Shown: piece by piece, positions 1-8,308 of the stretch
Layout: every line of letters starts with the position of its first letter
Position numbering within the stretch: position 1 is the stretch's first letter
Notes under the pieces: generated by a model
Told to the model about the DNA's origin: nothing
The model's database searches: none
What the model saw: the letters and a program-made list of their open reading frames with translations, nothing else
Translations under genes and position numbers: made by a program
Assembly (NCBI GenBank): GCA_022340215.1
Contig: JAJDOJ010000164.1
Location: 290-64,289 of the forward strand
From: Gammaproteobacteria bacterium
Lineage (GTDB): Bacteria; Pseudomonadota; Gammaproteobacteria; JAJDOJ01
DNA: 64,000 bases
Direction: 5' to 3'

Positions 1-1193
1 CCGGTATCGGGCCCTTCGATCCGGAGGATAACTGGGTCTGGGAGGACAGGGGTGGAGCCAGCATCCAGATCGCCTCGCCAGGCGTCCACACCCTGAACCT
101 GTGGATGCGTGAGTCCGGCATCTCCGTCGATCGCATCCTGCTGACCACCGACCCGTCCTTCATCCCCGGTCCGGGCCTGGCCGAGAGTCCTCGTGGCAGC
201 GCCTGCGGATCGGCGCCGACGGTGGAGATAACGTCTCCCGTTGCGGGAGATTTCCAGAGCAAGACGGACCTGTTCGTCACGACCCGGACCTGTCTCGAAG
301 GCGCTTCACATTCGGGCTGGGGAATCCGGGTGAGGGCTGACGGCGGACCCAGCGCCGGGGGATCGGAGGCCTTTGCCTATACCTCACCATGGTCGGTCAC
401 GCTGTTCGGGCTCGCCCTAGCGGAGCACGTGATCGACGCGGACGTCGTGGACGAATCCGGCAACCCTGTCGCCGGCAGCCAGACGCACGACCAGGTCAGC
501 CAGATCGGGATCGGCGACGGCTATCTCGCCATCGGCGACAGCGTTACCCTCGGCGTCGGGGATGACGACCCGAGCGACGACACCTCGCAGGACGGCAGGG
601 TCACCGGCGGCGGCTTCGCTCCGATCCTTAACGACCTGCTGAGCAGCCCCCCGACCAAGGGATATCCCCACCGTATCATCAATAATGGTGTAGGTGGTGA
701 AACCTCCGCAGGCGGGCTTCAGGAACTGCCGGGTGTGCTGAGCGCACACCCGGATGCGGACCGCGTCCTGATCATGTACGGCATGAATGACGCCCGCCCC
801 TGGCTACCCGTTCCCAGCGGTCTGGGGTTGTCACCCGGTGATGGCGGATATCCCGGCACCTACAAGGACAACATGCAGCAGATTGTTGACCTCGTGAACG
901 CCGACGGCCGTGAGGCAATGCTGGCCACGGTCAACATCGCTCTCGGTGACAGCACGAACACGACGCCGTATCCTGACCCCAACCTCGGAGCCCGCAGCGT
1001 CCTGATCCAGGAATACAATGATGTGGTGGACGAACTGGTAGCCGACAACGCGAACGGAATCAATGTGACACCACCGAACTTCTACAGCCATTTCGAGGTG
1101 AATCACCCGACAGAGTACTCGGACAATATCCACCCCAATGGCGCGGGGTACGACTCGATGGCCGATCTCTGGTTCAATGCATTGACACAATAA
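1..1193 (+). CDS. Secreted multidomain protein with a C-terminal SGNH/GDSL hydrolase domain. The 5' end is truncated by the window edge.
   Basis: The reading frame is open from base 3 with no stop, so the gene starts upstream of the window. SGNH blocks are present: AIGDSVTLG (GDS catalytic Ser), GMNDA (block III), DNIHPN (DxxH block V). Confidence 0.7.
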   Translation, partial: GIGPFDPEDNWVWEDRGGASIQIASPGVHTLNLWMRESGISVDRILLTTDPSFIPGPGLAESPRGSACGSAPTVEITSPVAGDFQSKTDLFVTTRTCLEGASHSGWGIRVRADGGPSAGGSEAFAYTSPWSVTLFGLALAEHVIDADVVDESGNPVAGSQTHDQVSQIGIGDGYLAIGDSVTLGVGDDDPSDDTSQDGRVTGGGFAPILNDLLSSPPTKGYPHRIINNGVGGETSAGGLQELPGVLSAHPDADRVLIMYGMNDARPWLPVPSGLGLSPGDGGYPGTYKDNMQQIVDLVNADGREAMLATVNIALGDSTNTTPYPDPNLGARSVLIQEYNDVVDELVADNANGINVTPPNFYSHFEVNHPTEYSDNIHPNGAGYDSMADLWFNALTQ

Positions 1194-1819: not shown

Positions 1820-3121
1820 CTACGAGTTGCCGAAAAACAACTGGTTCTGTTCTGCCCGGAGTTGGTCCACGAGACGCCCTTGCGGGACTTCCACGTCGTC
1901 GTACGTCACTGTGGTGTCTTTAGGAATATTCCGTTTCAACCTACATCCCTCTGCTAGCCCTATTGGCAGGAGTCTCTCCGCGGAACAGACATCCGCATTC
2001 TCCGCCTCTCCGTAGGTCATGTAGTATCCCATGCCGTCCAGTACCTGCCCTGCCTTGAGATCGATCTTGGCGGTCGTGACCACGTCGACGCAGGGACCTC
2101 CAGCAGGCATGATAGCGCCGTCATTAAACAATGCAGCGCGGGCTACGGTCGTCGGGACCTCGAAGTGGCATAGGTGATAGGGTGTATAGAAGCAATACAG
2201 CGGGCCTTCTCCCAGTTTGTACAGATTCAGATAGTGCTGCTGTTGCGGGTGATCGTGCGTTCCGAGGACAAACACCCCCGGGCCCGGTTCCGCCCTAACC
2301 ACGTAATCGACGATCCCCGTGCCTTCGATGAGGTCTTCGAGTGGATACCAGTTCACGGCCTCCTTGATCGGGGTGCCCGGCTCGACGGTCGGCCCGTGCA
2401 TGCCGCGTTTGGCCACGCGCATACCGGTCGCATTCGCCACGATGGCCTGCTCGAAAGAGATCTTGGTCCCGTCCGCGAACGAGGTCACCATATGGGCCTT
2501 TTGACCCCATTGCCTGGCAAATCCCTCCTGGGTCGTCGGATTACGGTACGGGTCCTGGAGGCCCTTGATGTTGCCGCATAGCACCGGTTTGACACCGATG
2601 CCCTGAACGAATCGATAGAGGTTCAGAATGACACCGGGCTGGTCACCATCGGCATTCGTGTAAACAACGCCAGCCTTGTCCGCATAGGTCTTCAGCAATG
2701 GCCCGATCGTACCGTCCAGTTCCGCGTTCATGATGACGACATGCTTGCCGTTCTCGATGGCCTCCATCACCACACGGGCACCGAACTCAACCGCCCCTGT
2801 CACCTCAATTAGCACCTCGATATGATCCGACCGGCAAAGAAGCATAGAATCGTCGGTTACGGCATAGGTCCCTTTCTCTATGGCCTCGTCCAGCGATGAG
2901 ACTGAATCCACGCACAGCGTGTCGTCTACATCCGCCTCCCGATAGGCCCTGATCGCACCCTCGACAGACCGATTGGAAATCGCGACCAAATCCATCCCAG
3001 GAGTATATTTCAGAATCTGTAACGCGATTCCCCTCCCCATGAAACCTGCACCTACCATCCCAACCCTGATGGGTCTATTCTCCGCCTCTCTCTGCTTCAG
3101 CGCTGTGTCCACAATAATCAT
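1820..3121 (-). CDS. NAD(P)-binding oxidoreductase with a C-terminal SAF domain (homoserine-dehydrogenase-like, COG4091 type). Last gene of the CDP-sugar operon.
   Basis: Rossmann motif VGMVGAGFMGRG at the N-terminus. 433 aa. Same orientation as the sugar-nucleotide genes upstream. Confidence 0.6.
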   Translation of the reverse strand: MIIVDTALKQREAENRPIRVGMVGAGFMGRGIALQILKYTPGMDLVAISNRSVEGAIRAYREADVDDTLCVDSVSSLDEAIEKGTYAVTDDSMLLCRSDHIEVLIEVTGAVEFGARVVMEAIENGKHVVIMNAELDGTIGPLLKTYADKAGVVYTNADGDQPGVILNLYRFVQGIGVKPVLCGNIKGLQDPYRNPTTQEGFARQWGQKAHMVTSFADGTKISFEQAIVANATGMRVAKRGMHGPTVEPGTPIKEAVNWYPLEDLIEGTGIVDYVVRAEPGPGVFVLGTHDHPQQQHYLNLYKLGEGPLYCFYTPYHLCHFEVPTTVARAALFNDGAIMPAGGPCVDVVTTAKIDLKAGQVLDGMGYYMTYGEAENADVCSAERLLPIGLAEGCRLKRNIPKDTTVTYDDVEVPQGRLVDQLRAEQNQLFFGNS

Positions 3122-3187
3122 GCACGCGACTCCAAAATCTGTCTGGATGGAATATCCCCTTGCGTAAGACCGGTCCGGGCGAGGTGA

Positions 3188-3718
3188 TTAACCCTCAAAG
3201 TCCGGCCAAGATGCATCTTTATCGGAGATAACGGAGACCGTGACCGGCCACTCGATTCCCAGGGCCGGGTCGTTGTAGCGCAAACCCTGTTCGGCACCAG
3301 GCGTATAGAACTCCGTCACCATATAATAGGCTTCGGTGTCGTCCTCCAAGGTCACGAATCCGTGAGCAAAGCCTTCAGGCACGAACAACATCCGATGGTT
3401 ATCCGCGGTAAGTTCTACACCTATCCAATCCTTAAATGTCGGGGAGTCTTCACGAAGATCGACGATGACGTCATAAAGGGACCCGCGCGTGCAACGTACC
3501 AGTTTCGACTCCTCGTGGGGACTGATCTGGTAATGCATGCCCCGCATTGTGCCCTTTTTTGTGCTCAGGGAAACGTTGGCCTGCGCGAGATCCGCCGACA
3601 AACCATGTTCCTGCATTTCCCGCTTGCACCAGGCTCTGGCGAAAAAACCTCTTTCATCCCCCAGTTCCTGGATATCGATGATAAAGGCACCCTTGAATTT
3701 GGTCTCGTCAAACTTCAT
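3188..3718 (-). CDS. RmlC-like cupin sugar-nucleotide 3,5-epimerase (dTDP-4-dehydrorhamnose 3,5-epimerase family)
   Basis: 176 aa. Start KFDETKFKGAFIIDIQELGDERGFF and motif MHYQ...VPEGFAHGF are typical of RmlC-family epimerases. Confidence 0.75.
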   Translation of the reverse strand: MKFDETKFKGAFIIDIQELGDERGFFARAWCKREMQEHGLSADLAQANVSLSTKKGTMRGMHYQISPHEESKLVRCTRGSLYDVIVDLREDSPTFKDWIGVELTADNHRMLFVPEGFAHGFVTLEDDTEAYYMVTEFYTPGAEQGLRYNDPALGIEWPVTVSVISDKDASWPDFEG

Positions 3719-3756
3719 GGCTTGTCGCTTTGTTCTATGTGTTTGGACCCGGCGCC

Positions 3757-4806
3757 TTAGGCGATCCAGCGCAATTCTTTGCCAAGAAGTTTTCTTTCTT
3801 GCAGACCGTTCAGAACCTTTAACCGCATGTATTGGGAGTTCCGGAAGTCCTGGTTGTCAAACCCCATACGCTCCAGTCCCTCTCTCAATTCCCGAATCGA
3901 TTGATCTAGCGGTACCTGAGGGAGGTGACCCGGGGCAAGCGACTTGTACAGACTGAAATCAACTCGATAGGAGCGCTTGTCCGGTTGGGCTTCCGTGTTG
4001 ATCTCCAGCTCCACATCCGGCATCTGCTCCTTTACGGCCTCCGCAAGATCTCGAACCTGGTAGTTCCACTCCGTCCTTCCAACGTTGACTGCCAGGAAAG
4101 CGCCGCCGTTCGATGCTTCACGGCTCACGGCCCAATTCATCGCGCGGCTCATGTCCTTGATGTCGATTAGCGGGCGCCACGGGGTGCCGTCACTGAGTAT
4201 CTTGATCTTCCTCGAAGCGACCGCGGCCGCTACAAAATCATTTAGAACCAGGTCCAGACGCAGGCGTTCGCTCATACCACAAGCCGTAGGAAACCGCAGA
4301 CTGGTGACAACGAAACTGTCTTCAGCCAGACCTTGAATGGATTTTTCCGTGTTTATCTTTGATCTCGCATAGGCGGTTAGTGGGTTTAACTCAGAATTTT
4401 CATCTCGCGCCTCACCCTCGGCGTAACCGTATACACTGCAGCTGGAAGCGAACACGTAGGACTTCACGCCCGCCTCTTTCGCCATCTCGGCAATCCGTAG
4501 GCTGGAACGGTAATTGACTTCGGCGGTTACGTTCTCGAACGCATTACCCATAGGATCGTTGGAGATAGCGGCCAGATGGACAACGCTGTCCACCCCTCGC
4601 AGGAACTGCAGTTCAATATCTCGAACGTCCCTGATGTACTGAACATCGATTCGGGTTTCCGGAAGCACTTCGGCCCCCGTAAGACAGTGACCAAAAAAAC
4701 CCGTGTCTACCCCCACTATCTTCACCCCCGGATAACCCGCCTTTAGCGTACGTACCAGCGTTGGACCGATGTACCCCATGTTTCCAGTAATTAAGATGTT
4801 CTGCAT
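3757..4806 (-). CDS. NAD-dependent nucleoside-diphosphate-sugar epimerase/dehydratase (extended SDR)
   Basis: N-terminal glycine-rich motif ITGNMGYIG, catalytic YARSK (YxxxK), 349 aa. Confidence 0.75.
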   Translation of the reverse strand: MQNILITGNMGYIGPTLVRTLKAGYPGVKIVGVDTGFFGHCLTGAEVLPETRIDVQYIRDVRDIELQFLRGVDSVVHLAAISNDPMGNAFENVTAEVNYRSSLRIAEMAKEAGVKSYVFASSCSVYGYAEGEARDENSELNPLTAYARSKINTEKSIQGLAEDSFVVTSLRFPTACGMSERLRLDLVLNDFVAAAVASRKIKILSDGTPWRPLIDIKDMSRAMNWAVSREASNGGAFLAVNVGRTEWNYQVRDLAEAVKEQMPDVELEINTEAQPDKRSYRVDFSLYKSLAPGHLPQVPLDQSIRELREGLERMGFDNQDFRNSQYMRLKVLNGLQERKLLGKELRWIA

Positions 4807-4935
4807 TTTTACTCGAGTAGTTCCCTAGAAATAATTGAAATATTCATAGTCACACTCAAGCAGAGCGTGCCCGTGCCGTGTTTCATTTTCCCTTGAACCG
4901 CTGGTATGGGGCAATTCAAGGAGATCTCAATACTC

Positions 4936-6156
4936 TCAGGTCAAGGTGGATAGATTACGGTCGATATAGTCGACAACGTAAGCGGAGAATGGGATTGAAC
5001 ACGTCCATCCCGGCGACACAGCATTCAACACATGGGTTGACTCACTATTTCCCTCCAACACGAAGTCCATTTCCAGTTTGCGTTTCTTCGTGTTGACCAA
5101 TTGTGCGCGAATGCCAGGCTTACCCCAATCCCTGAAATGCGACTCGGTAACTCCCGTTGCCAATTTCGTTGCCAGTGAAATCAGATGGTTGCGTGAATAC
5201 TTCCGGATCTCCGTCATCGCCAACCTGGAAAATTTGAATTCGGACGAGGTAAACAGCGATGCAGAACGCAAACCAATATCGACAACCTCACCTAAACTGA
5301 ACCCGTTGAACCCATTGTAATTCTCGCGCCAGAAAGCAGGGATAGCAGTAGGCCCGATTTTGGTTATTCCATCAACGGTAATAGTGAAATGGACGCCGAG
5401 GAACGGATATTCGAGATCCGGAACTGGGTAAATATGCGTCTTGTATGCCCCTTTCTGTTCATTAGATTTCAGGTAGATTCCTTTGAACGGCAAGATCGCA
5501 TAGTCCTCGGAGAAACCAAAATCGCGCGCCACCTTGTCGGCGTACAATCCAGCGGCATTCACTAGATGACCCACCACGTAATCGCCAGATTTGGTAAGTA
5601 TCTTCATTCCGTCTCGCCTGACATATCCAGCGCCGTATCGGAAGTCGATCCCTTCCCGTCTGGCATCCTGCTCCATGTGCTGGATCACCGTGAGTGGATC
5701 GGCGGATGATGTTGTCGGCGAATAAATAGCTCTGCGGTAGGTCTTGATTCGCGGTTCTATCCGCCGTGCCTCCTCCGCGCTCAGTTCCTCGAGCGCCACA
5801 CCATTGGTCGCTCCACGCCTCAATAGTTCATCCAGCAACCTGTCTTCCGACTCATTAGACGCGACGACAAGCTTGCCGCATTTGTTGAGAAATATCCCTT
5901 TATCGTCACAATACTCGGTGAGGGCCTGATTTCCGTCCCGAGTAAATCTGGCCTTCAGACTATCGGCCGTGTAGTAAAAGCCAGCATGCAGCACGCCGCT
6001 ATTCCGACCGCTGGCATGTTCGCCGCAGACGGTTTCCTTTTCCAGGAGGACAACACTGGAACCCGGATTCCGACGTTTTATCTCACGCGCTATGTTGATT
6101 CCGATGATGCCTGCGCCGATGACGAGGAAATCGGCTCGTTTTGCCTTGGTCACCAT
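4936..6156 (-). CDS. FAD-dependent oxidoreductase (DAO superfamily, L-2-hydroxyglutarate-oxidase-like)
   Basis: FAD fingerprint DFLVIGAGIIGINIA at the N-terminus. 406 aa. It sits inside the sugar operon. Confidence 0.65.
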   Translation of the reverse strand: MVTKAKRADFLVIGAGIIGINIAREIKRRNPGSSVVLLEKETVCGEHASGRNSGVLHAGFYYTADSLKARFTRDGNQALTEYCDDKGIFLNKCGKLVVASNESEDRLLDELLRRGATNGVALEELSAEEARRIEPRIKTYRRAIYSPTTSSADPLTVIQHMEQDARREGIDFRYGAGYVRRDGMKILTKSGDYVVGHLVNAAGLYADKVARDFGFSEDYAILPFKGIYLKSNEQKGAYKTHIYPVPDLEYPFLGVHFTITVDGITKIGPTAIPAFWRENYNGFNGFSLGEVVDIGLRSASLFTSSEFKFSRLAMTEIRKYSRNHLISLATKLATGVTESHFRDWGKPGIRAQLVNTKKRKLEMDFVLEGNSESTHVLNAVSPGWTCSIPFSAYVVDYIDRNLSTLT

Positions 6157-6929
6157 ATCTTCCAGGGAGCTTCACCACTATCCCAAATGCTTTCCAGGTG
6201 GTTCTTGTCTCTCAGCGTGTCCATGGGGTGCCAGAATCCATGATGTCGATATGCGCTGAGCTGATTGTCCGATACCAACGCGTCCAGTGGTTCCCTCTCC
6301 CAGACCGTGGAATCACCTTCGATGTAATCCGTTACCTTCGGCTCCAGGACGAAAAAACCTCCATTGATCCAAGCATTTTCTTCCTTCGGCTTCTCACGAA
6401 AATGCTTTATCACGTTCTGCCCTTCTGCGAGAGTAAAAGCTCCAAACCGACCGGTGGGTTGAACTGCGGTAAGGGTCGCTAGTCTACCCTGCTGCCTATG
6501 AAAGCTTACGGCCTCACTAATATTGATGTTTCCGACACCATCTCCATAGGTCAAACAGAATGTCTCGTCGCCAATGTAACCCCTCACCCTTTTTAAACGG
6601 CCGCCAGTCATGGTTGCCACCCCCGTGTCCACCAAAGTGACCTGCCACTTTTCAACCCCACTCTTGTGGATTTGTGTATCCTTACCCTCCCCGTCAAACG
6701 TGAAAGTCACGTCCGACCTGTGAAGCCAATAATTGGCGAAATACTCTTTGATAACATATCCCATGAATCCACAACAAATAACGAATTCACTAATACCATG
6801 GCAATAGTAAATTTTCATAATATGCCAGAGAATCGGCATCCCGCCCACTTCGACCATTGGTTTAGGCCGAATCGAAGTTTCTTCCGACAGCCGAGTGCCC
6901 AACCCACCGGCAAGTATCACTGCCTTCAT
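6150..6929 (-). CDS. rfbF: Glucose-1-phosphate cytidylyltransferase (CDP-glucose pyrophosphorylase). First gene of the operon.
   Basis: MKAVILAGGLGTRLSEETSIRPKPMVEVGGMPILWHIMKIY is the RfbF/DdhA signature. 259 aa. Confidence 0.85.
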   Translation of the reverse strand: MKAVILAGGLGTRLSEETSIRPKPMVEVGGMPILWHIMKIYYCHGISEFVICCGFMGYVIKEYFANYWLHRSDVTFTFDGEGKDTQIHKSGVEKWQVTLVDTGVATMTGGRLKRVRGYIGDETFCLTYGDGVGNINISEAVSFHRQQGRLATLTAVQPTGRFGAFTLAEGQNVIKHFREKPKEENAWINGGFFVLEPKVTDYIEGDSTVWEREPLDALVSDNQLSAYRHHGFWHPMDTLRDKNHLESIWDSGEAPWKIW

Positions 6930-8308
6930 TGCTTCTCCATACTTATCGGATAAACCTTGTTTGCGTCTTTGCGTTCCCTACGGCCGTCTTGGCATGGTTT
7001 CTGGCCCGGACAGACGGCAATCGCGCTAGATTGCGCCACCGGACAAGCACCGGGGCCACGCTGGTGTGGGAGGCGCAGATTTCAGCGCCTAACTCCGCGA
7101 TCCCGAATCGGCGCGCATGTCTTGCGCGTCAAAATAAATCTTCCATGATTTAAAGCACCCACTATAATGGCTAGCACTATTGGATTCAGGCATTTATCTT
7201 GTCCCCACTAGCCTCAAGGTACGAGAATCGGATAAGGAATCATTGCCGCCACACAATTCTATGCATGGTCTTAATTTATCGACACTGAATGCCAAGGATG
7301 TTTGTAGATTAGCGACCAGCGACCATCATGTACAAAAACGCAAATGATGATTACAACGACTTGCAGCAATATTCCATCATTGATGGATACGAAACTGCGC
7401 GGGAAATCTACTTTCGATATTCTTGATTGTCAAATGAGTGGGATCATTCGATCCATTATCGACATTCCCGTAGATGGTGTGGTCATGGGCGTCATATACC
7501 TCCCCCCCAGGTACCCGCCGATGGCTCTCACCAGCCGCCTGTCGCCTCGGAAGCCCAGCAAATCACCCATTCCAGTCGCTACATCAATTGGATGATCGAT
7601 TGTCGCTAGAATCCCGAATTGCCCTGAATCATGATGCGCGCCTTCAGTCAGCGGTTGCGAATCCGTCCCACCATCCACTTCATCTCCTCGACACAGCCAT
7701 CCGGCGCATCCCGGTTCGATGGGCACAGGCGCACAAACGGTGTTCGCGGCAGAAACTGTACGGAGCCAGTAACAGTAGCACACGTAGTCTCAATAGAAAA
7801 AATGCCCTTCCCTCCTGGTCGGCATCGAGCATACCTTTTTACGACCGAACCGTCCTCCTCACCAGAAACCGGCTTAGGAGAACTACGCAGGAATTGAAGC
7901 TGTCCCGGGGTATTCGATACGAGGGCGTCTGCGGCTCCTGATACGAAAAGGCCTCGGGAGATTACGACACGCCAGATGAACCGACTCATCTCTGCGGTTC
8001 GGCAAGTGTCGCGCTCAACACCGCGGCACGGCGCGTACCCCAGCAATCGGCCTCACCATATGCAATTCGTCGCCCGACCGGCCGGGATCCTCAAGTGGAA
8101 TCGGGATCGCGCTCGAACGTCGAGACCCGACCGCGGAACACTGTCACAAAGTGCTTATCCACCGCCCTGGAAACCAGGCCCTGAACAGCGGCAGCGGCCT
8201 GTTCTGCAAGAACTTATTTTTGCCTCCGTTTCGGCAACGTGAGTTCGAATGCGCAGGATCTTCCGAGACAAGTGCACCATGACCGCTCCGAACCACGACC
8301 ACGAACCT

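What the first reader, a model, noticed from the sequence alone, without database searches (positions are those of the whole stretch)
1820..6929. CDP-sugar operon with unusual tailoring enzymes and no CDP-glucose 4,6-dehydratase/dehydrase pair
The operon starts with a clear glucose-1-phosphate cytidylyltransferase (rfbF). The canonical partners rfbG/ddhB (4,6-dehydratase) and rfbH/ddhC are absent. Instead it is followed by an LhgO-like FAD oxidoreductase, an extended-SDR epimerase/dehydratase, an RmlC-like 3,5-epimerase and a SAF-domain NAD(P) oxidoreductase. That enzyme set does not map onto the textbook 3,6-dideoxyhexose routes and may make a different CDP-activated sugar. No glycosyltransferase, Wzx or Wzy is nearby, and the operon is bounded by an AT-richer gene-free gap. 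This suggests a horizontally acquired precursor module.
Basis: partly seen in the sequence, partly recalled or inferred. Interest (0 to 1): 0.5.

Follow-up and report, generated by a model that had tools for sequence, protein, structure and literature searches.

The report
CDP-sugar operon with 2-hydroxyglutarate recycling
This horizontally acquired five-gene operon probably makes an unusual CDP-linked sugar by oxidising CDP-glucose at C4 without removing the 6-hydroxyl, has its own enzyme to recycle the co-substrate, and has the same gene content as the Coxiella cluster whose two key enzymes are still unidentified.

Summary
Five co-oriented genes on the minus strand at 1820-6929 encode RfbF, an LhgO-like flavoenzyme, an extended SDR, an RmlC-like epimerase and a DXR-II-like (DRL/SAF) oxidoreductase. 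GC is 53% against 62% for the housekeeping genes around them.

The SDR is not a 4,6-dehydratase: its motif is SSCSVYG, with no Asp/Glu pair. Its nearest characterised relative, by sequence and by fold, is C. jejuni Cj1427. That enzyme oxidises C4 of a sugar nucleotide and reduces alpha-ketoglutarate to L-2-hydroxyglutarate.

In 80 species that carry this SDR, RmlC lies within 6 kb in 67 and RfbF in 64. An L-2-hydroxyglutarate oxidase gene abuts the SDR in 29. These oxidases come from three lineages, and nearly all of those checked keep all six substrate-binding residues. True Cj1427 orthologues also recruit LhgO, in 6 of 47 loci.

The DRL-like protein has lost two of the three phosphonate anchors of DXR-II, so it is DLO1-like. 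Other variants carry ordinary reductases in a similar position.

Best reading: CDP-glucose, then CDP-4-keto-glucose (LhgO regenerates alpha-ketoglutarate), then 3,5-epimerisation, then an NAD(P)H-dependent finishing step.

The annotated Coxiella burnetii cluster CBU_1834-1838 has the same gene content. The finishing step may therefore be the ring contraction that gives dihydrohydroxystreptose. None of this has been tested biochemically.

The parts
6150..6929 (-). rfbF: glucose-1-phosphate cytidylyltransferase (259 aa). Makes CDP-D-glucose. First gene of the operon.
   Evidence: TIGR02623 equivalog, 432 bits against a cut-off of 300, aligned 1-259 to 1-255/255. The alignment supports the ATG at 6929 rather than JGI's shorter call. 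An RfbF homologue lies within 6 kb of the SDR in 64 of 80 species loci.
4936..6156 (-). LhgO-like FAD enzyme (406 aa). Inferred L-2-hydroxyglutarate oxidase/dehydrogenase that regenerates alpha-ketoglutarate for the SDR. Its start overlaps the rfbF stop by 7 nt.
   Evidence: NF008726, 310 bits against 299. Best PDB hit is Drosophila L2HGDH 8w75, E 1e-54. All six 2-OG-binding residues of dmL2HGDH (S88, H92, Y289, L299, H302, R393; PMC10726252) are conserved. An LhgO-like gene lies within 500 nt of the SDR in 29 of 80 species, from three lineages.
3757..4806 (-). Extended SDR (349 aa). Inferred CDP-glucose C4-dehydrogenase that releases CDP-4-keto-glucose without 4,6-dehydration, with alpha-ketoglutarate as the oxidant of its bound NADH (Cj1427-like).
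   Evidence: Pfam Epimerase; no dehydratase equivalog. Best PDB match by profile is Cj1427 6vo6, 106 bits against 77 for the next. Cj1427 is also the top Foldseek hit of the AF2 model (pLDDT 83). Motifs [FY]ASSCS[VMI]YG, YA[KR]SK, G.S.R.RLDLVLND and PDKRSY are near-invariant in the 70 called family members; the last two are shared with Cj1427. Identity is 60-80% across many phyla.
3188..3718 (-). RmlC-like NDP-4-keto-hexose 3,5-epimerase (176 aa).
   Evidence: TIGR01221, 189 bits against 156; PF00908, E 2.5e-68. The conserved RGMHYQ, KLVR, YYMV and SDKDA motifs align with those of solved RmlCs. Lies within 6 kb of the SDR in 67 of 80 loci.
1820..3121 (-). DXR-II-like (DRL/DLO1-type) NAD(P)-dependent oxidoreductase with a C-terminal SAF domain (433 aa). 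Inferred terminal NAD(P)H-dependent step: either 4-keto reduction or reductive ring contraction.
   Evidence: PF21135 DRL_cat, E 1.7e-55. Brucella DRL 3upl, E 5e-72. K191, G121 and H250 are kept, but K193->L, T229->I and R320->T. It is the only remaining reductase candidate in the operon. It follows RmlC in 34 of 80 loci, and three further homologues checked lie beside SDR and RmlC genes.
6930..8248 (.). Gene-free, lower-GC (53.7%) upstream region. Presumed promoter region and island boundary.
   Evidence: No Pfam hit for its ORFs, no Rfam family, no JGI gene call. One sigma-70-like site on the minus strand at 7433-7405 (10/12 matches), but the number of such sites is no higher than in shuffles.

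Best explanation
The operon is a non-dehydrating CDP-4-ketohexose pathway.

(1) RfbF makes CDP-D-glucose. This rests on an equivalog-level match.

(2) The SDR oxidises C4 and releases CDP-4-keto-D-glucose with the 6-OH intact. By analogy with Cj1427, its tightly bound NADH is re-oxidised by alpha-ketoglutarate, which gives L-2-hydroxyglutarate. This step is inferred.

(3) The LhgO-like flavoenzyme oxidises L-2-hydroxyglutarate back to alpha-ketoglutarate and passes the electrons to quinone or O2. The co-substrate then acts catalytically, the oxidation is pulled forward, and L-2-HG does not accumulate. This is inferred from the active-site residues and from recurrent gene adjacency.

(4) The RmlC-like enzyme epimerises C3 and/or C5 of the 4-keto sugar. 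This is inferred from family membership and catalytic residues.

(5) The DXR-II-like (DLO1-type) enzyme finishes the sugar with NAD(P)H. It either reduces C4 to give a CDP-L-hexose, or performs a DXR-style alpha-ketol rearrangement plus reduction. The second route would contract the ring to the branched sugar 3-C-hydroxymethyl-L-lyxose (dihydrohydroxystreptose).

The module was acquired horizontally. In this genome it has no adjacent glycosyltransferase.
For: The SDR lacks the dehydratase Asp/Glu pair; the motif SSCS[VMI]YG is present in 64 of the 70 called family members. It gives no dehydratase profile hit.

Cj1427 is its best solved relative, by profile (106 bits against 77) and by fold (ranks 1-4). 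The two share the G.S.R.RLDL..ND and PDKR.Y motifs. Cj1427 is documented as a ping-pong C4-dehydrogenase that reduces alpha-KG to L-2-HG, and it is followed by a cupin epimerase and a reductase (PMC10680097).

Operon logic agrees. RmlC-type epimerases, and the C-methyltransferases in variant loci, need a free 4-keto sugar. RfbF-SDR-RmlC is the conserved core (64-67 of 80 loci), and 47 of the 80 loci have no flavoenzyme gene nearby. The SDR must therefore make the ketone itself.

LhgO-like genes lie within 500 nt of the SDR in 29 of 80 species. They come from three lineages: the window type, canonical LhgO (535 bits) and the short Bp3253 type. All 25 full-length ones that lie within 6 kb and could be checked keep the six 2-OG-binding residues.

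As an independent control, genuine Cj1427 orthologues (55-69% identity) have an LhgO-like gene nearby in 6 of 47 loci of at least 5 kb.

The cultured strain Deinococcus ficus CC-FR2-10 carries the same five genes in the same order on plasmid pDFI2. PGAP names the second one lhgO, and GT4 genes lie beside the operon.

The DRL gene follows RmlC (directly in most loci) in 34 of 80 loci. In other variants ordinary SDR reductases lie downstream of RmlC instead.

Gene overlaps indicate translational coupling.
Against: Identity between the SDR and Cj1427 is only 28%. Foldseek separates Cj1427 from TunA and the GalE-like epimerases by only about one order of magnitude in E-value.

No residue is known to mark alpha-KG use, so the ping-pong mechanism cannot be read from the sequence.

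Most loci (47 of 80) lack an adjacent LhgO, so it is dispensable or supplied from elsewhere in the genome.

The window LhgO only just passes its equivalog cut-off (310 against 299).

The flavoenzyme in the analogous Coxiella cluster is annotated as an amine or protoporphyrinogen oxidase, not as LhgO.

The RmlC model was trained on 6-deoxy substrates.

There are no biochemical data for any of the five proteins.
Confidence: 0.6

Rival explanations
1. The SDR is a divergent CDP-glucose 4,6-dehydratase. The operon then makes a CDP-6-deoxy-L-hexose by a rhamnose-like route (dehydratase, 3,5-epimerase, reductase), and LhgO is a metabolic passenger.
For: The gene order mirrors RmlA-B-C-D. RmlC scores as an equivalog of the 6-deoxy enzyme. 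Sister variants carry TylC3-type C-methyltransferases, which are typical of deoxysugar pathways. The SDR matches Pfam GDP_Man_Dehyd (E 2.6e-15) and weakly matches TIGR01181 (44 bits).
Against: The positions of the catalytic Asp/Glu (STDEVYG in RmlB/DesIV) are Cys-Ser in 64 of the 70 called family members. No CDP-glucose 4,6-dehydratase model is hit at E<=1e-3, and TIGR01181 scores 44 against a cut-off of 365. The nearest solved relatives are non-dehydrating enzymes. A passenger would not be recruited three separate times next to the SDR, nor be translationally coupled to its neighbours.
Confidence: 0.1
2. The flavoenzyme itself is the sugar-nucleotide oxidase. It would oxidise a ring hydroxyl of CDP-glucose directly. 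The SDR would be an epimerase or reductase, as in an oxidase/reductase pair such as DprE1/DprE2.
For: The analogous Coxiella cluster carries a differently annotated FAD oxidase (CBU_1835, 'amine oxidase') next to its SDR. Cross et al. call the missing first step a 'C-4 oxidase'. Two Chloroflexi-type loci have a PQQ-type GSDH gene in the same place.
Against: The six residues that bind 2-oxoglutarate, including the Arg that pairs with its C5 carboxylate, are conserved in all three LhgO lineages found beside the SDR. One of these lineages is canonical LhgO, at 535 bits. In 47 of 80 loci RfbF-SDR-RmlC is kept with no flavoenzyme nearby.
Confidence: 0.12
3. The SDR is an ordinary epimerase that retains its cofactor (C4 or C2 epimerase acting on CDP-glucose). 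The genes would be a loose collection rather than one pathway.
For: The SSxSVYG motif and overall fold are GalE-like, and many Foldseek hits are 4-epimerases. CDP-tyvelose 2-epimerase-type enzymes act on CDP-glucose (from my own knowledge).
Against: An epimerase releases no keto sugar, which would leave RmlC (67 of 80 loci) and the C-methyltransferases without a substrate. The same gene order recurs across Pseudomonadota, Bacteroidota, Planctomycetota, Nitrospirota, Deinococcota and Chloroflexota.
Confidence: 0.08

Closest known systems
Campylobacter jejuni GDP-heptose modification pathway (Cj1427 C4-dehydrogenase, Cj1430 C3/C5-epimerase, Cj1428 C4-reductase)
   Same: A non-dehydrating C4 oxidation by an extended SDR, then a cupin epimerase, then an NAD(P)H-dependent finishing enzyme. 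Cj1427 is the closest solved relative of the window SDR. Alpha-KG and L-2-HG are its co-substrate pair.
   Different: The nucleotide and sugar differ: CDP-glucose rather than GDP-heptose. Identity is only 28%. This operon has a dedicated LhgO gene, which the reviewed C. jejuni pathway does not mention. The last enzyme is DXR-II-like rather than an SDR reductase.
Coxiella burnetii cbu1834-cbu1838 cluster and the proposed dihydrohydroxystreptose (DHHS) pathway
   Same: By annotation the gene content matches one for one: nucleotidylyltransferase (CBU_1834), FAD oxidase (CBU_1835), 'homoserine dehydrogenase NAD-binding domain' protein of 418 aa (CBU_1836; C. burnetii is listed as having a DLO1 member), 346-aa NAD-dependent epimerase/dehydratase (CBU_1837) and RmlC (CBU_1838). 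The proposed route is C4 oxidation that keeps the 6-OH, then 3,5-epimerisation, then ring contraction.
   Different: Coxiella uses an RmlA-type (TDP) transferase, and its flavoenzyme is annotated as an amine/protoporphyrinogen oxidase. I could not obtain the Coxiella sequences, so orthology with the window proteins is untested.
DXR-II / DRL of Brucella abortus (alternative DXP reductoisomerase) and the uncharacterised DLO1/DLO2 clades
   Same: Same three-domain architecture. E 5e-72 to 3upl. K191, G121, H250 and much of the catalytic-domain sequence are kept.
   Different: Two of the three phosph(on)ate anchors are replaced by hydrophobic residues (K193->L, T229->I), and R320->T. Residue 229 is Ile, as in DLO1. 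The genomic context is nucleotide-sugar synthesis, not isoprenoid synthesis.
dTDP-L-rhamnose pathway (RmlA-D) and dTDP-dihydrostreptose synthesis (StrD/E/M/L)
   Same: Activation, 4-keto formation, 3,5-epimerisation and NAD(P)H-dependent finishing. The RmlC is at equivalog level.
   Different: There is no 4,6-dehydratase, so C6 keeps its hydroxyl. The nucleotide is CDP. The finishing enzyme is not RmlD-like.
CDP-3,6-dideoxyhexose pathway (RfbF/DdhA, RfbG/DdhB, RfbH/DdhC, DdhD)
   Same: It shares only the first enzyme, RfbF.
   Different: There is no 4,6-dehydratase, no PMP-dependent E1 and no E3 reductase.

Membership tests
Glucose-1-phosphate cytidylyltransferase (RfbF, TIGR02623) | Full-length match above the equivalog cut-off | tested here: met
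   432 bits against 300, covering 1-259 of the protein and 1-255/255 of the model.
NDP-hexose 4,6-dehydratases (RfbG/DdhB, RmlB, GMD) | Acid/base pair (Asp-Glu, or Asp-Lys in the CDP enzymes) right after the catalytic Ser/Thr in the S-T-D-E-x-Y-G motif (the motif is from my own knowledge of RmlB and DesIV) | tested here: not met
   The motif is SSCSVYG in the window protein and [FY]ASSCS[VMI]YG in 64 of the 70 called family members.
NDP-hexose 4,6-dehydratases (RfbG/DdhB, RmlB, GMD) | Profile match near a curated cut-off | tested here: not met
   TIGR01181 scores 43.7 against 365. No CDP-glucose 4,6-dehydratase model appears at E<=1e-3.
Cj1427-type ping-pong sugar-nucleotide C4-dehydrogenase | Closest characterised relative by sequence and by structure | tested here: met
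   6vo6 is the top hit by phmmer (E 5e-21) and by profile (106 bits against 77), and Foldseek ranks it 1-4. Identity is only 28%, so this shows resemblance, not orthology.
Cj1427-type ping-pong sugar-nucleotide C4-dehydrogenase | Tightly bound NADH re-oxidised by alpha-ketoglutarate, giving L-2-hydroxyglutarate | not testable with these tools
   Indirect support only. LhgO genes abut the SDR in 29 of 80 species, and lie near true Cj1427 orthologues in 6 of 47 loci.
Cj1427-type ping-pong sugar-nucleotide C4-dehydrogenase | Works ahead of a cupin C3/C5 epimerase and an NAD(P)H-dependent enzyme in the same cluster | tested here: met
   RmlC lies within 6 kb in 67 of 80 loci. A DRL or an SDR reductase lies downstream of it.
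L-2-hydroxyglutarate oxidase/dehydrogenase (LhgO/L2HGDH) | NF008726 equivalog cut-off | tested here: met
   310.4 against 299, which is marginal. The D. ficus orthologue-in-context is named lhgO by PGAP.
L-2-hydroxyglutarate oxidase/dehydrogenase (LhgO/L2HGDH) | The six residues that bind 2-OG/L-2-HG in dmL2HGDH (S88, H92, Y289, L299, H302, R393) | tested here: met
   All six are conserved in the window protein. They are also conserved in all 25 full-length LhgO-like neighbours within 6 kb of the SDR in the 80 loci, and in the six LhgO-like genes found near Cj1427 orthologues. A fragment (L007) keeps the four positions it covers. L060, 3 kb away, has two changes.
dTDP-4-dehydrorhamnose 3,5-epimerase family (RmlC) | Equivalog score, plus the catalytic His base and Tyr acid | tested here: met
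   TIGR01221 scores 189 against 156. The RGMHYQ His and the YYMV Tyr align with those of solved RmlCs. The roles of His and Tyr are taken from PMC9095892.
DXR-II (DRL) DXP reductoisomerase | Substrate/fosmidomycin anchors Lys191, Lys193 and Thr229, plus Arg320 | tested here: not met
   K191 is kept, but K193->L, T229->I and R320->T (alignment; residue roles from PMC3847144).
DLO1 clade of DXR-II-like oxidoreductases (function unknown) | DRL fold with a hydrophobic residue (Leu/Ile/Val) at position 229 | tested here: met
   Ile at position 229 (criterion). No phylogenetic placement was done.
Coxiella-type DHHS biosynthesis module | Sequence-level orthology of the SDR and DRL to CBU_1837 and CBU_1836 | not tested
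   Only annotations and lengths were available.

The most novel reading that the evidence does not exclude
The operon makes CDP-dihydrohydroxystreptose (3-C-hydroxymethyl-L-lyxofuranose) or a close branched-chain relative.

On this reading the Cj1427-like SDR is the 'C-4 oxidase', and the DLO1-type DXR-II-like enzyme is the ring-contracting 'DHHS synthase'. Cross et al. (2022) state that both activities are still unidentified for the Coxiella burnetii O-antigen.

The chemistry fits. DXR moves the substituent of the carbinol carbon onto the ketone carbon and reduces the resulting aldehyde. Applied to an NDP-4-keto-L-hexose (C4 ketone, C3 carbinol, C2 migrating), this gives exactly a 3-C-hydroxymethyl-pentofuranose.

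If this is right, three things follow:
- DHHS is not unique to Coxiella but is encoded in hundreds of environmental species.
- The DLO1 family gets its first function.
- LhgO is the physiological partner of alpha-KG-dependent sugar-nucleotide dehydrogenases.
Probability: 0.4. Interest if true: 0.85.

Novelty: new variant of a known kind. Interest (0 to 1): 0.7.

Why it matters
Three open questions become directly testable with soluble, clonable enzymes from cultured hosts (Deinococcus ficus pDFI2, Hydrogenophaga pseudoflava).

(1) How do alpha-ketoglutarate-dependent 'ping-pong' sugar-nucleotide dehydrogenases such as Cj1427 avoid consuming alpha-KG and accumulating L-2-HG? Here the answer appears to be encoded in the operon itself.

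(2) What do the DLO1 relatives of DXR-II do? They have been uncharacterised since 2013.

(3) Which enzymes supply the two missing steps of dihydrohydroxystreptose synthesis in the Q-fever agent? DHHS is a marker of virulent phase I lipopolysaccharide.

The module also points to a widespread and so far undescribed class of CDP-activated hexoses that keep the 6-hydroxyl, or branched sugars, in environmental polysaccharides.

Tried and rejected
- Canonical CDP-3,6-dideoxyhexose or CDP-6-deoxy routes. Rejected: no dehydratase residues and no profile hit.
- DRL as a true DXP reductoisomerase. Rejected: the phosphate anchors are lost and the context is sugar synthesis.
- Mobile-element or RNA features in the 6930-8248 gap. 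Nothing found. The promoter and terminator scan gave no more sites than shuffles.
- The Cj1427 primary papers (PMC7509852, PMC7500870, PMC8240034) and the DRL structure paper (PMC3346137). None is held, so residue-level criteria for alpha-KG use or DRL metal binding could not be taken from them.
- Fetching the Coxiella sequences. Not possible.
- Identifying PDB 7pvi, the second-best RmlC hit (211 aa), which might be tagged CBU1838, through a single-sequence AF2 model of RmlC. This failed (pLDDT 32), so I claim nothing about 7pvi.
- Locating the Streptomyces griseus DLO1 gene relative to the str cluster. The genome paper is not held.
- Pfam scan of ten further window ORFs to locate the CpsB/CapC hit. 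It was not among them.

Full report
WHAT IS THERE

Profile searches identify them as follows.
- Glucose-1-phosphate cytidylyltransferase: TIGR02623, 432 bits against a cut-off of 300.
- An LhgO-like DAO-family flavoenzyme: NF008726, 310 against 299.
- An extended SDR with no specific family. Its best score is 72 bits to GalE against a cut-off of 262, it scores 44 bits to dTDP-glucose dehydratase against 365, and it does not hit any CDP-glucose dehydratase model.
- An RmlC: TIGR01221, 189 against 156.
- A protein with the DRL catalytic domain (PF21135, E 1.7e-55), a homoserine-dehydrogenase-type NAD domain and a SAF domain.

rfbF and the flavoenzyme gene overlap by 7 nt. The other gaps are 129, 38 and 66 nt.

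The window matches a Gammaproteobacteria MAG contig; the same genes also occur on JGI metagenome 3300037398. The rest of the window is housekeeping: msrAB, sulfatase, leuBCD, asd, trpABF, parCE.

The operon has 53.0% GC against 61.8% elsewhere. Each of its genes lies 2.4 to 5.8 sd below the mean GC of 33 other genes. In other genomes the same module has the GC of its host. The window copy therefore looks recently acquired.

The 1.3-kb upstream gap carries nothing recognisable. Only 1.8 kb lies between the last gene and the window edge, and the JGI contig ends near the same place. Absence of glycosyltransferases is therefore shown on one side only.

THE SDR IS NOT A DEHYDRATASE AND RESEMBLES Cj1427

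The family is very conserved: 60-80% identity across Pseudomonadota, Bacteroidota, Planctomycetota, Nitrospirota, Desulfobacterota, Acidobacteriota, Verrucomicrobiota and others, with at least 599 species hits.

Where 4,6-dehydratases have S-T-D-E-V-Y-G, the called family members have [FY]ASSCS[VMI]YG, followed by YA[KR]SK. The acid/base pair needed for dehydration is therefore missing.

The best solved relative is C. jejuni Cj1427 (6vo6/6vo8):
- phmmer E 5e-21;
- family profile 106 bits, against 77 for the next hit;
- Foldseek ranks 1-4 for an AF2 model with pLDDT 83.

The two families share the unusual motifs G-x-S-x-R-x-R-L-D-L-x-x-N-D and P-D-K-R-x-Y.

Cj1427 oxidises C4 of GDP-heptose without dehydration. 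It holds NADH tightly, and alpha-ketoglutarate re-oxidises that NADH and is reduced to L-2-hydroxyglutarate. A cupin C3/C5 epimerase and an NADPH reductase follow it (PMC10680097).

Identity to Cj1427 is only 28%. I treat this as 'works like', not as membership.

WHY AN LhgO GENE SITS IN A SUGAR OPERON

I fetched 80 species-level loci around the SDR and mapped the five window proteins onto them.
- RmlC lies within 6 kb in 67 loci.
- RfbF lies within 6 kb in 64.
- DRL lies within 6 kb in 34.
- An LhgO-like gene lies within 500 nt of the SDR in 29 loci, and within 6 kb in 33.

These flavoenzymes belong to three lineages:
- the window type, 57-77% identical to the window protein (16 loci);
- a short form of 365-380 aa resembling Bp3253/3dme (15 loci);
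- canonical LhgO (2 loci; 535 bits in Crenothrix).

The crystal-structure paper on Drosophila L2HGDH defines six residues that bind 2-oxoglutarate: S88, H92, Y289, L299, H302 and R393. All six are conserved in the window protein and in all 25 full-length neighbours that lie within 6 kb of the SDR. A fragment (L007) keeps the four positions it covers. The one exception, L060, lies 3 kb away and has two changes.

Repeated, non-orthologous recruitment of an L-2-HG oxidase next to one SDR family is hard to explain unless that SDR produces L-2-HG.

As an independent control I collected loci around genuine Cj1427 orthologues (55-69% identity). Six of the 47 loci of at least 5 kb carry an LhgO-like gene with all six residues. 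Two of these genes lie immediately upstream, and one scores 332 bits to NF008726.

In 47 of the 80 SDR loci RfbF-SDR-RmlC is kept without any flavoenzyme nearby. The SDR, not the flavoenzyme, must therefore make the ketone, and LhgO is a helper.

THE REST OF THE PATHWAY

The RmlC keeps the catalytic His and Tyr motifs. It needs a 4-keto sugar as substrate.

The enzyme downstream of RmlC varies among the 80 loci:
- the DRL-like protein (34 loci, including this window);
- a TylC3-type C-methyltransferase together with a DUF4910 protein and an SDR or classical SDR reductase (about 27 loci);
- a 332-aa SDR in Alphaproteobacteria.

This places the DRL-like protein at the terminal NAD(P)H-dependent step.

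DRL homologues are 74-85% identical across phyla. Three further contexts I checked all have SDR and RmlC genes just upstream of the DRL gene: contiguous in Hydrogenophaga pseudoflava, and with a GSDH and a GT2 or unannotated gene interspersed in an Anaerolineae contig and in one other contig.

In other genomes the module sits among Wzm/Wzt transporters, GT2 and GT4 glycosyltransferases and initiating transferases.

Deinococcus ficus plasmid pDFI2 carries the same five genes in the same order, with 4-nt overlaps. PGAP annotates them as rfbF, lhgO, SDR family oxidoreductase, rfbC and SAF domain-containing protein, and GT4 genes lie next to them.

WHAT THE DRL-LIKE ENZYME MAY DO

It matches Brucella DRL (DXR-II) at E 5e-72.

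Of the residues that anchor fosmidomycin or the substrate phosphate, only K191 is kept. K193 is Leu and T229 is Ile. R320 is Thr. G121, H250 and most of the catalytic-domain sequence are kept.

Carretero-Paulet et al. (PMC3847144) separate true DXR-II from two uncharacterised clades, DLO1 and DLO2. DLO1 has Leu, Ile or Val at position 229. The window protein is therefore DLO1-like, not DXR-II.

The minimal reading is a 4-ketoreductase that gives a CDP-L-hexose. After a 3,5-epimerisation of the rhamnose type, that would be CDP-L-mannose or CDP-L-talose.

THE COXIELLA CONNECTION

Cross et al. (PMC9095892) propose that dihydrohydroxystreptose (DHHS) of the Coxiella O-antigen is made in three steps. 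The first is a C-4 oxidation of NDP-glucose that keeps the 6-OH. The second is a 3,5-epimerisation by CBU1838; they showed this activity and argue from its lower rate on the 6-deoxy substrate that its native substrate keeps the 6-hydroxyl. The third is a ring-contracting synthase. They state that the first and third activities are unidentified.

Published tables annotate the neighbourhood as follows:
- CBU_1834: rmlA.
- CBU_1835: amine/protoporphyrinogen oxidase, 459 aa.
[quoted passage not shown] - CBU_1838: rfbC.

The 2013 DXR-II paper lists all five C. burnetii genomes as carrying one DLO1 member (NP_820815.1). By annotation and length this is very probably CBU_1836.

The Coxiella cluster thus has the same five kinds of gene as the window operon.

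DXR chemistry moves the substituent of the carbinol carbon onto the ketone carbon and then reduces the aldehyde. Applied to an NDP-4-keto-L-hexose, this would give 3-C-hydroxymethyl-L-lyxofuranose, which is DHHS. That is my own chemical inference.

I could not obtain the Coxiella sequences, so orthology is untested. The Coxiella flavoenzyme is also annotated differently from LhgO.

VERDICT

The best-supported mechanism is a Cj1427-like, alpha-KG-coupled C4 oxidation with a dedicated LhgO recycler, then epimerisation, then a finishing step by a DLO1-type enzyme. I put confidence in this at about 0.6 overall. It is higher for 'the SDR releases a 4-keto sugar' and lower for the identity of the final product.

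Nothing in the held literature links CDP-glucose with 2-hydroxyglutarate.

I rate it a new variant of a known kind of pathway. The testable upside is substantial: the DHHS synthase, the function of DLO1, and the physiological partner of ping-pong sugar dehydrogenases.

Noticed in passing
L169:3349-5127 and L170:3252-5096 (Anaerolineae-type contigs): A gene of about 600 aa for a PQQ-type glucose/sorbosone dehydrogenase (PF07995 GSDH) lies between the SDR and RmlC. This is next to the SDR, as the LhgO gene is in other genomes. It could be an alternative redox partner.
   Followed up: no
About 19 of the 80 loci, e.g. L040:15828-16628; also L170:9241-10041: A second nucleotidyltransferase of 266 aa (PF00483, not RfbF-like) often lies just downstream of the DRL gene or in the same cluster. 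This suggests that a second activated sugar, or a re-activation step, is linked to the module.
   Followed up: no
About 27 of the 80 loci, e.g. L045:2668-3912 and L044:6878-8209: A sister variant of the module lacks the DRL gene. Instead it has a TylC3-type C-methyltransferase between the SDR and RmlC, a DUF4910/DUF2172/HTH_47 protein after RmlC, and an SDR reductase. It would make a C-methyl hexose that keeps the 6-OH.
   Followed up: partly
window 1-105 and beyond; L001:16343-16389: Two independent assemblies end within a few hundred bases of each other, just past the GDSL-lipase gene that lies 1.8 kb from the operon: the contig behind this window and the JGI contig. A repeat or mobile element may lie there, and any glycosyltransferases on that side would be unseen.
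   Followed up: no
Literature (PMC3847144, table in section 5): Streptomyces griseus NBRC 13350, the streptomycin (streptose) producer, appears in the part of the two-column table that seems to belong to DLO1 (YP_001827426.1). From memory its str cluster includes an oxidoreductase, StrU, and S. glaucescens has strQ (CDP-glucose synthase), strP and strX. I could not check whether the DLO1 gene lies in the str cluster.
   Followed up: partly
PDB 7pvi/7pwb versus window 3188-3718: The second-best solved match of the window RmlC is a 211-aa chain (157 bits). Its length equals CBU1838 (189 aa) plus a 22-residue tag. Its identity is unverified, and the paper lists other PDB codes.
   Followed up: partly
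L168 (Hydrogenophaga pseudoflava CP037867, 3233092-3248387): In this cultured strain the SDR-RmlC-DRL-GT2-RfbF module has IS66-family transposase genes about 2 kb upstream, beyond a two-component sensor/regulator pair. This fits the apparent mobility of the module.
   Followed up: no
Window; not located (one of the 46 ORFs in alignment A2): One ORF outside the operon matches CpsB/CapC (PF19567, E 2e-52), a capsule-synthesis tyrosine phosphatase family. It is the only polysaccharide-related hit among the 25 families listed for the rest of the window. It was not among the ten ORFs rescanned.
   Followed up: partly
L171:6359-7444 (Deinococcus ficus pDFI2): The Deinococcus SDR and LhgO are each only 36-37% identical to the window proteins, while RfbF, RmlC and DRL are 60-66% identical. 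The SDR and its LhgO partner may diverge or be replaced together.
   Followed up: no
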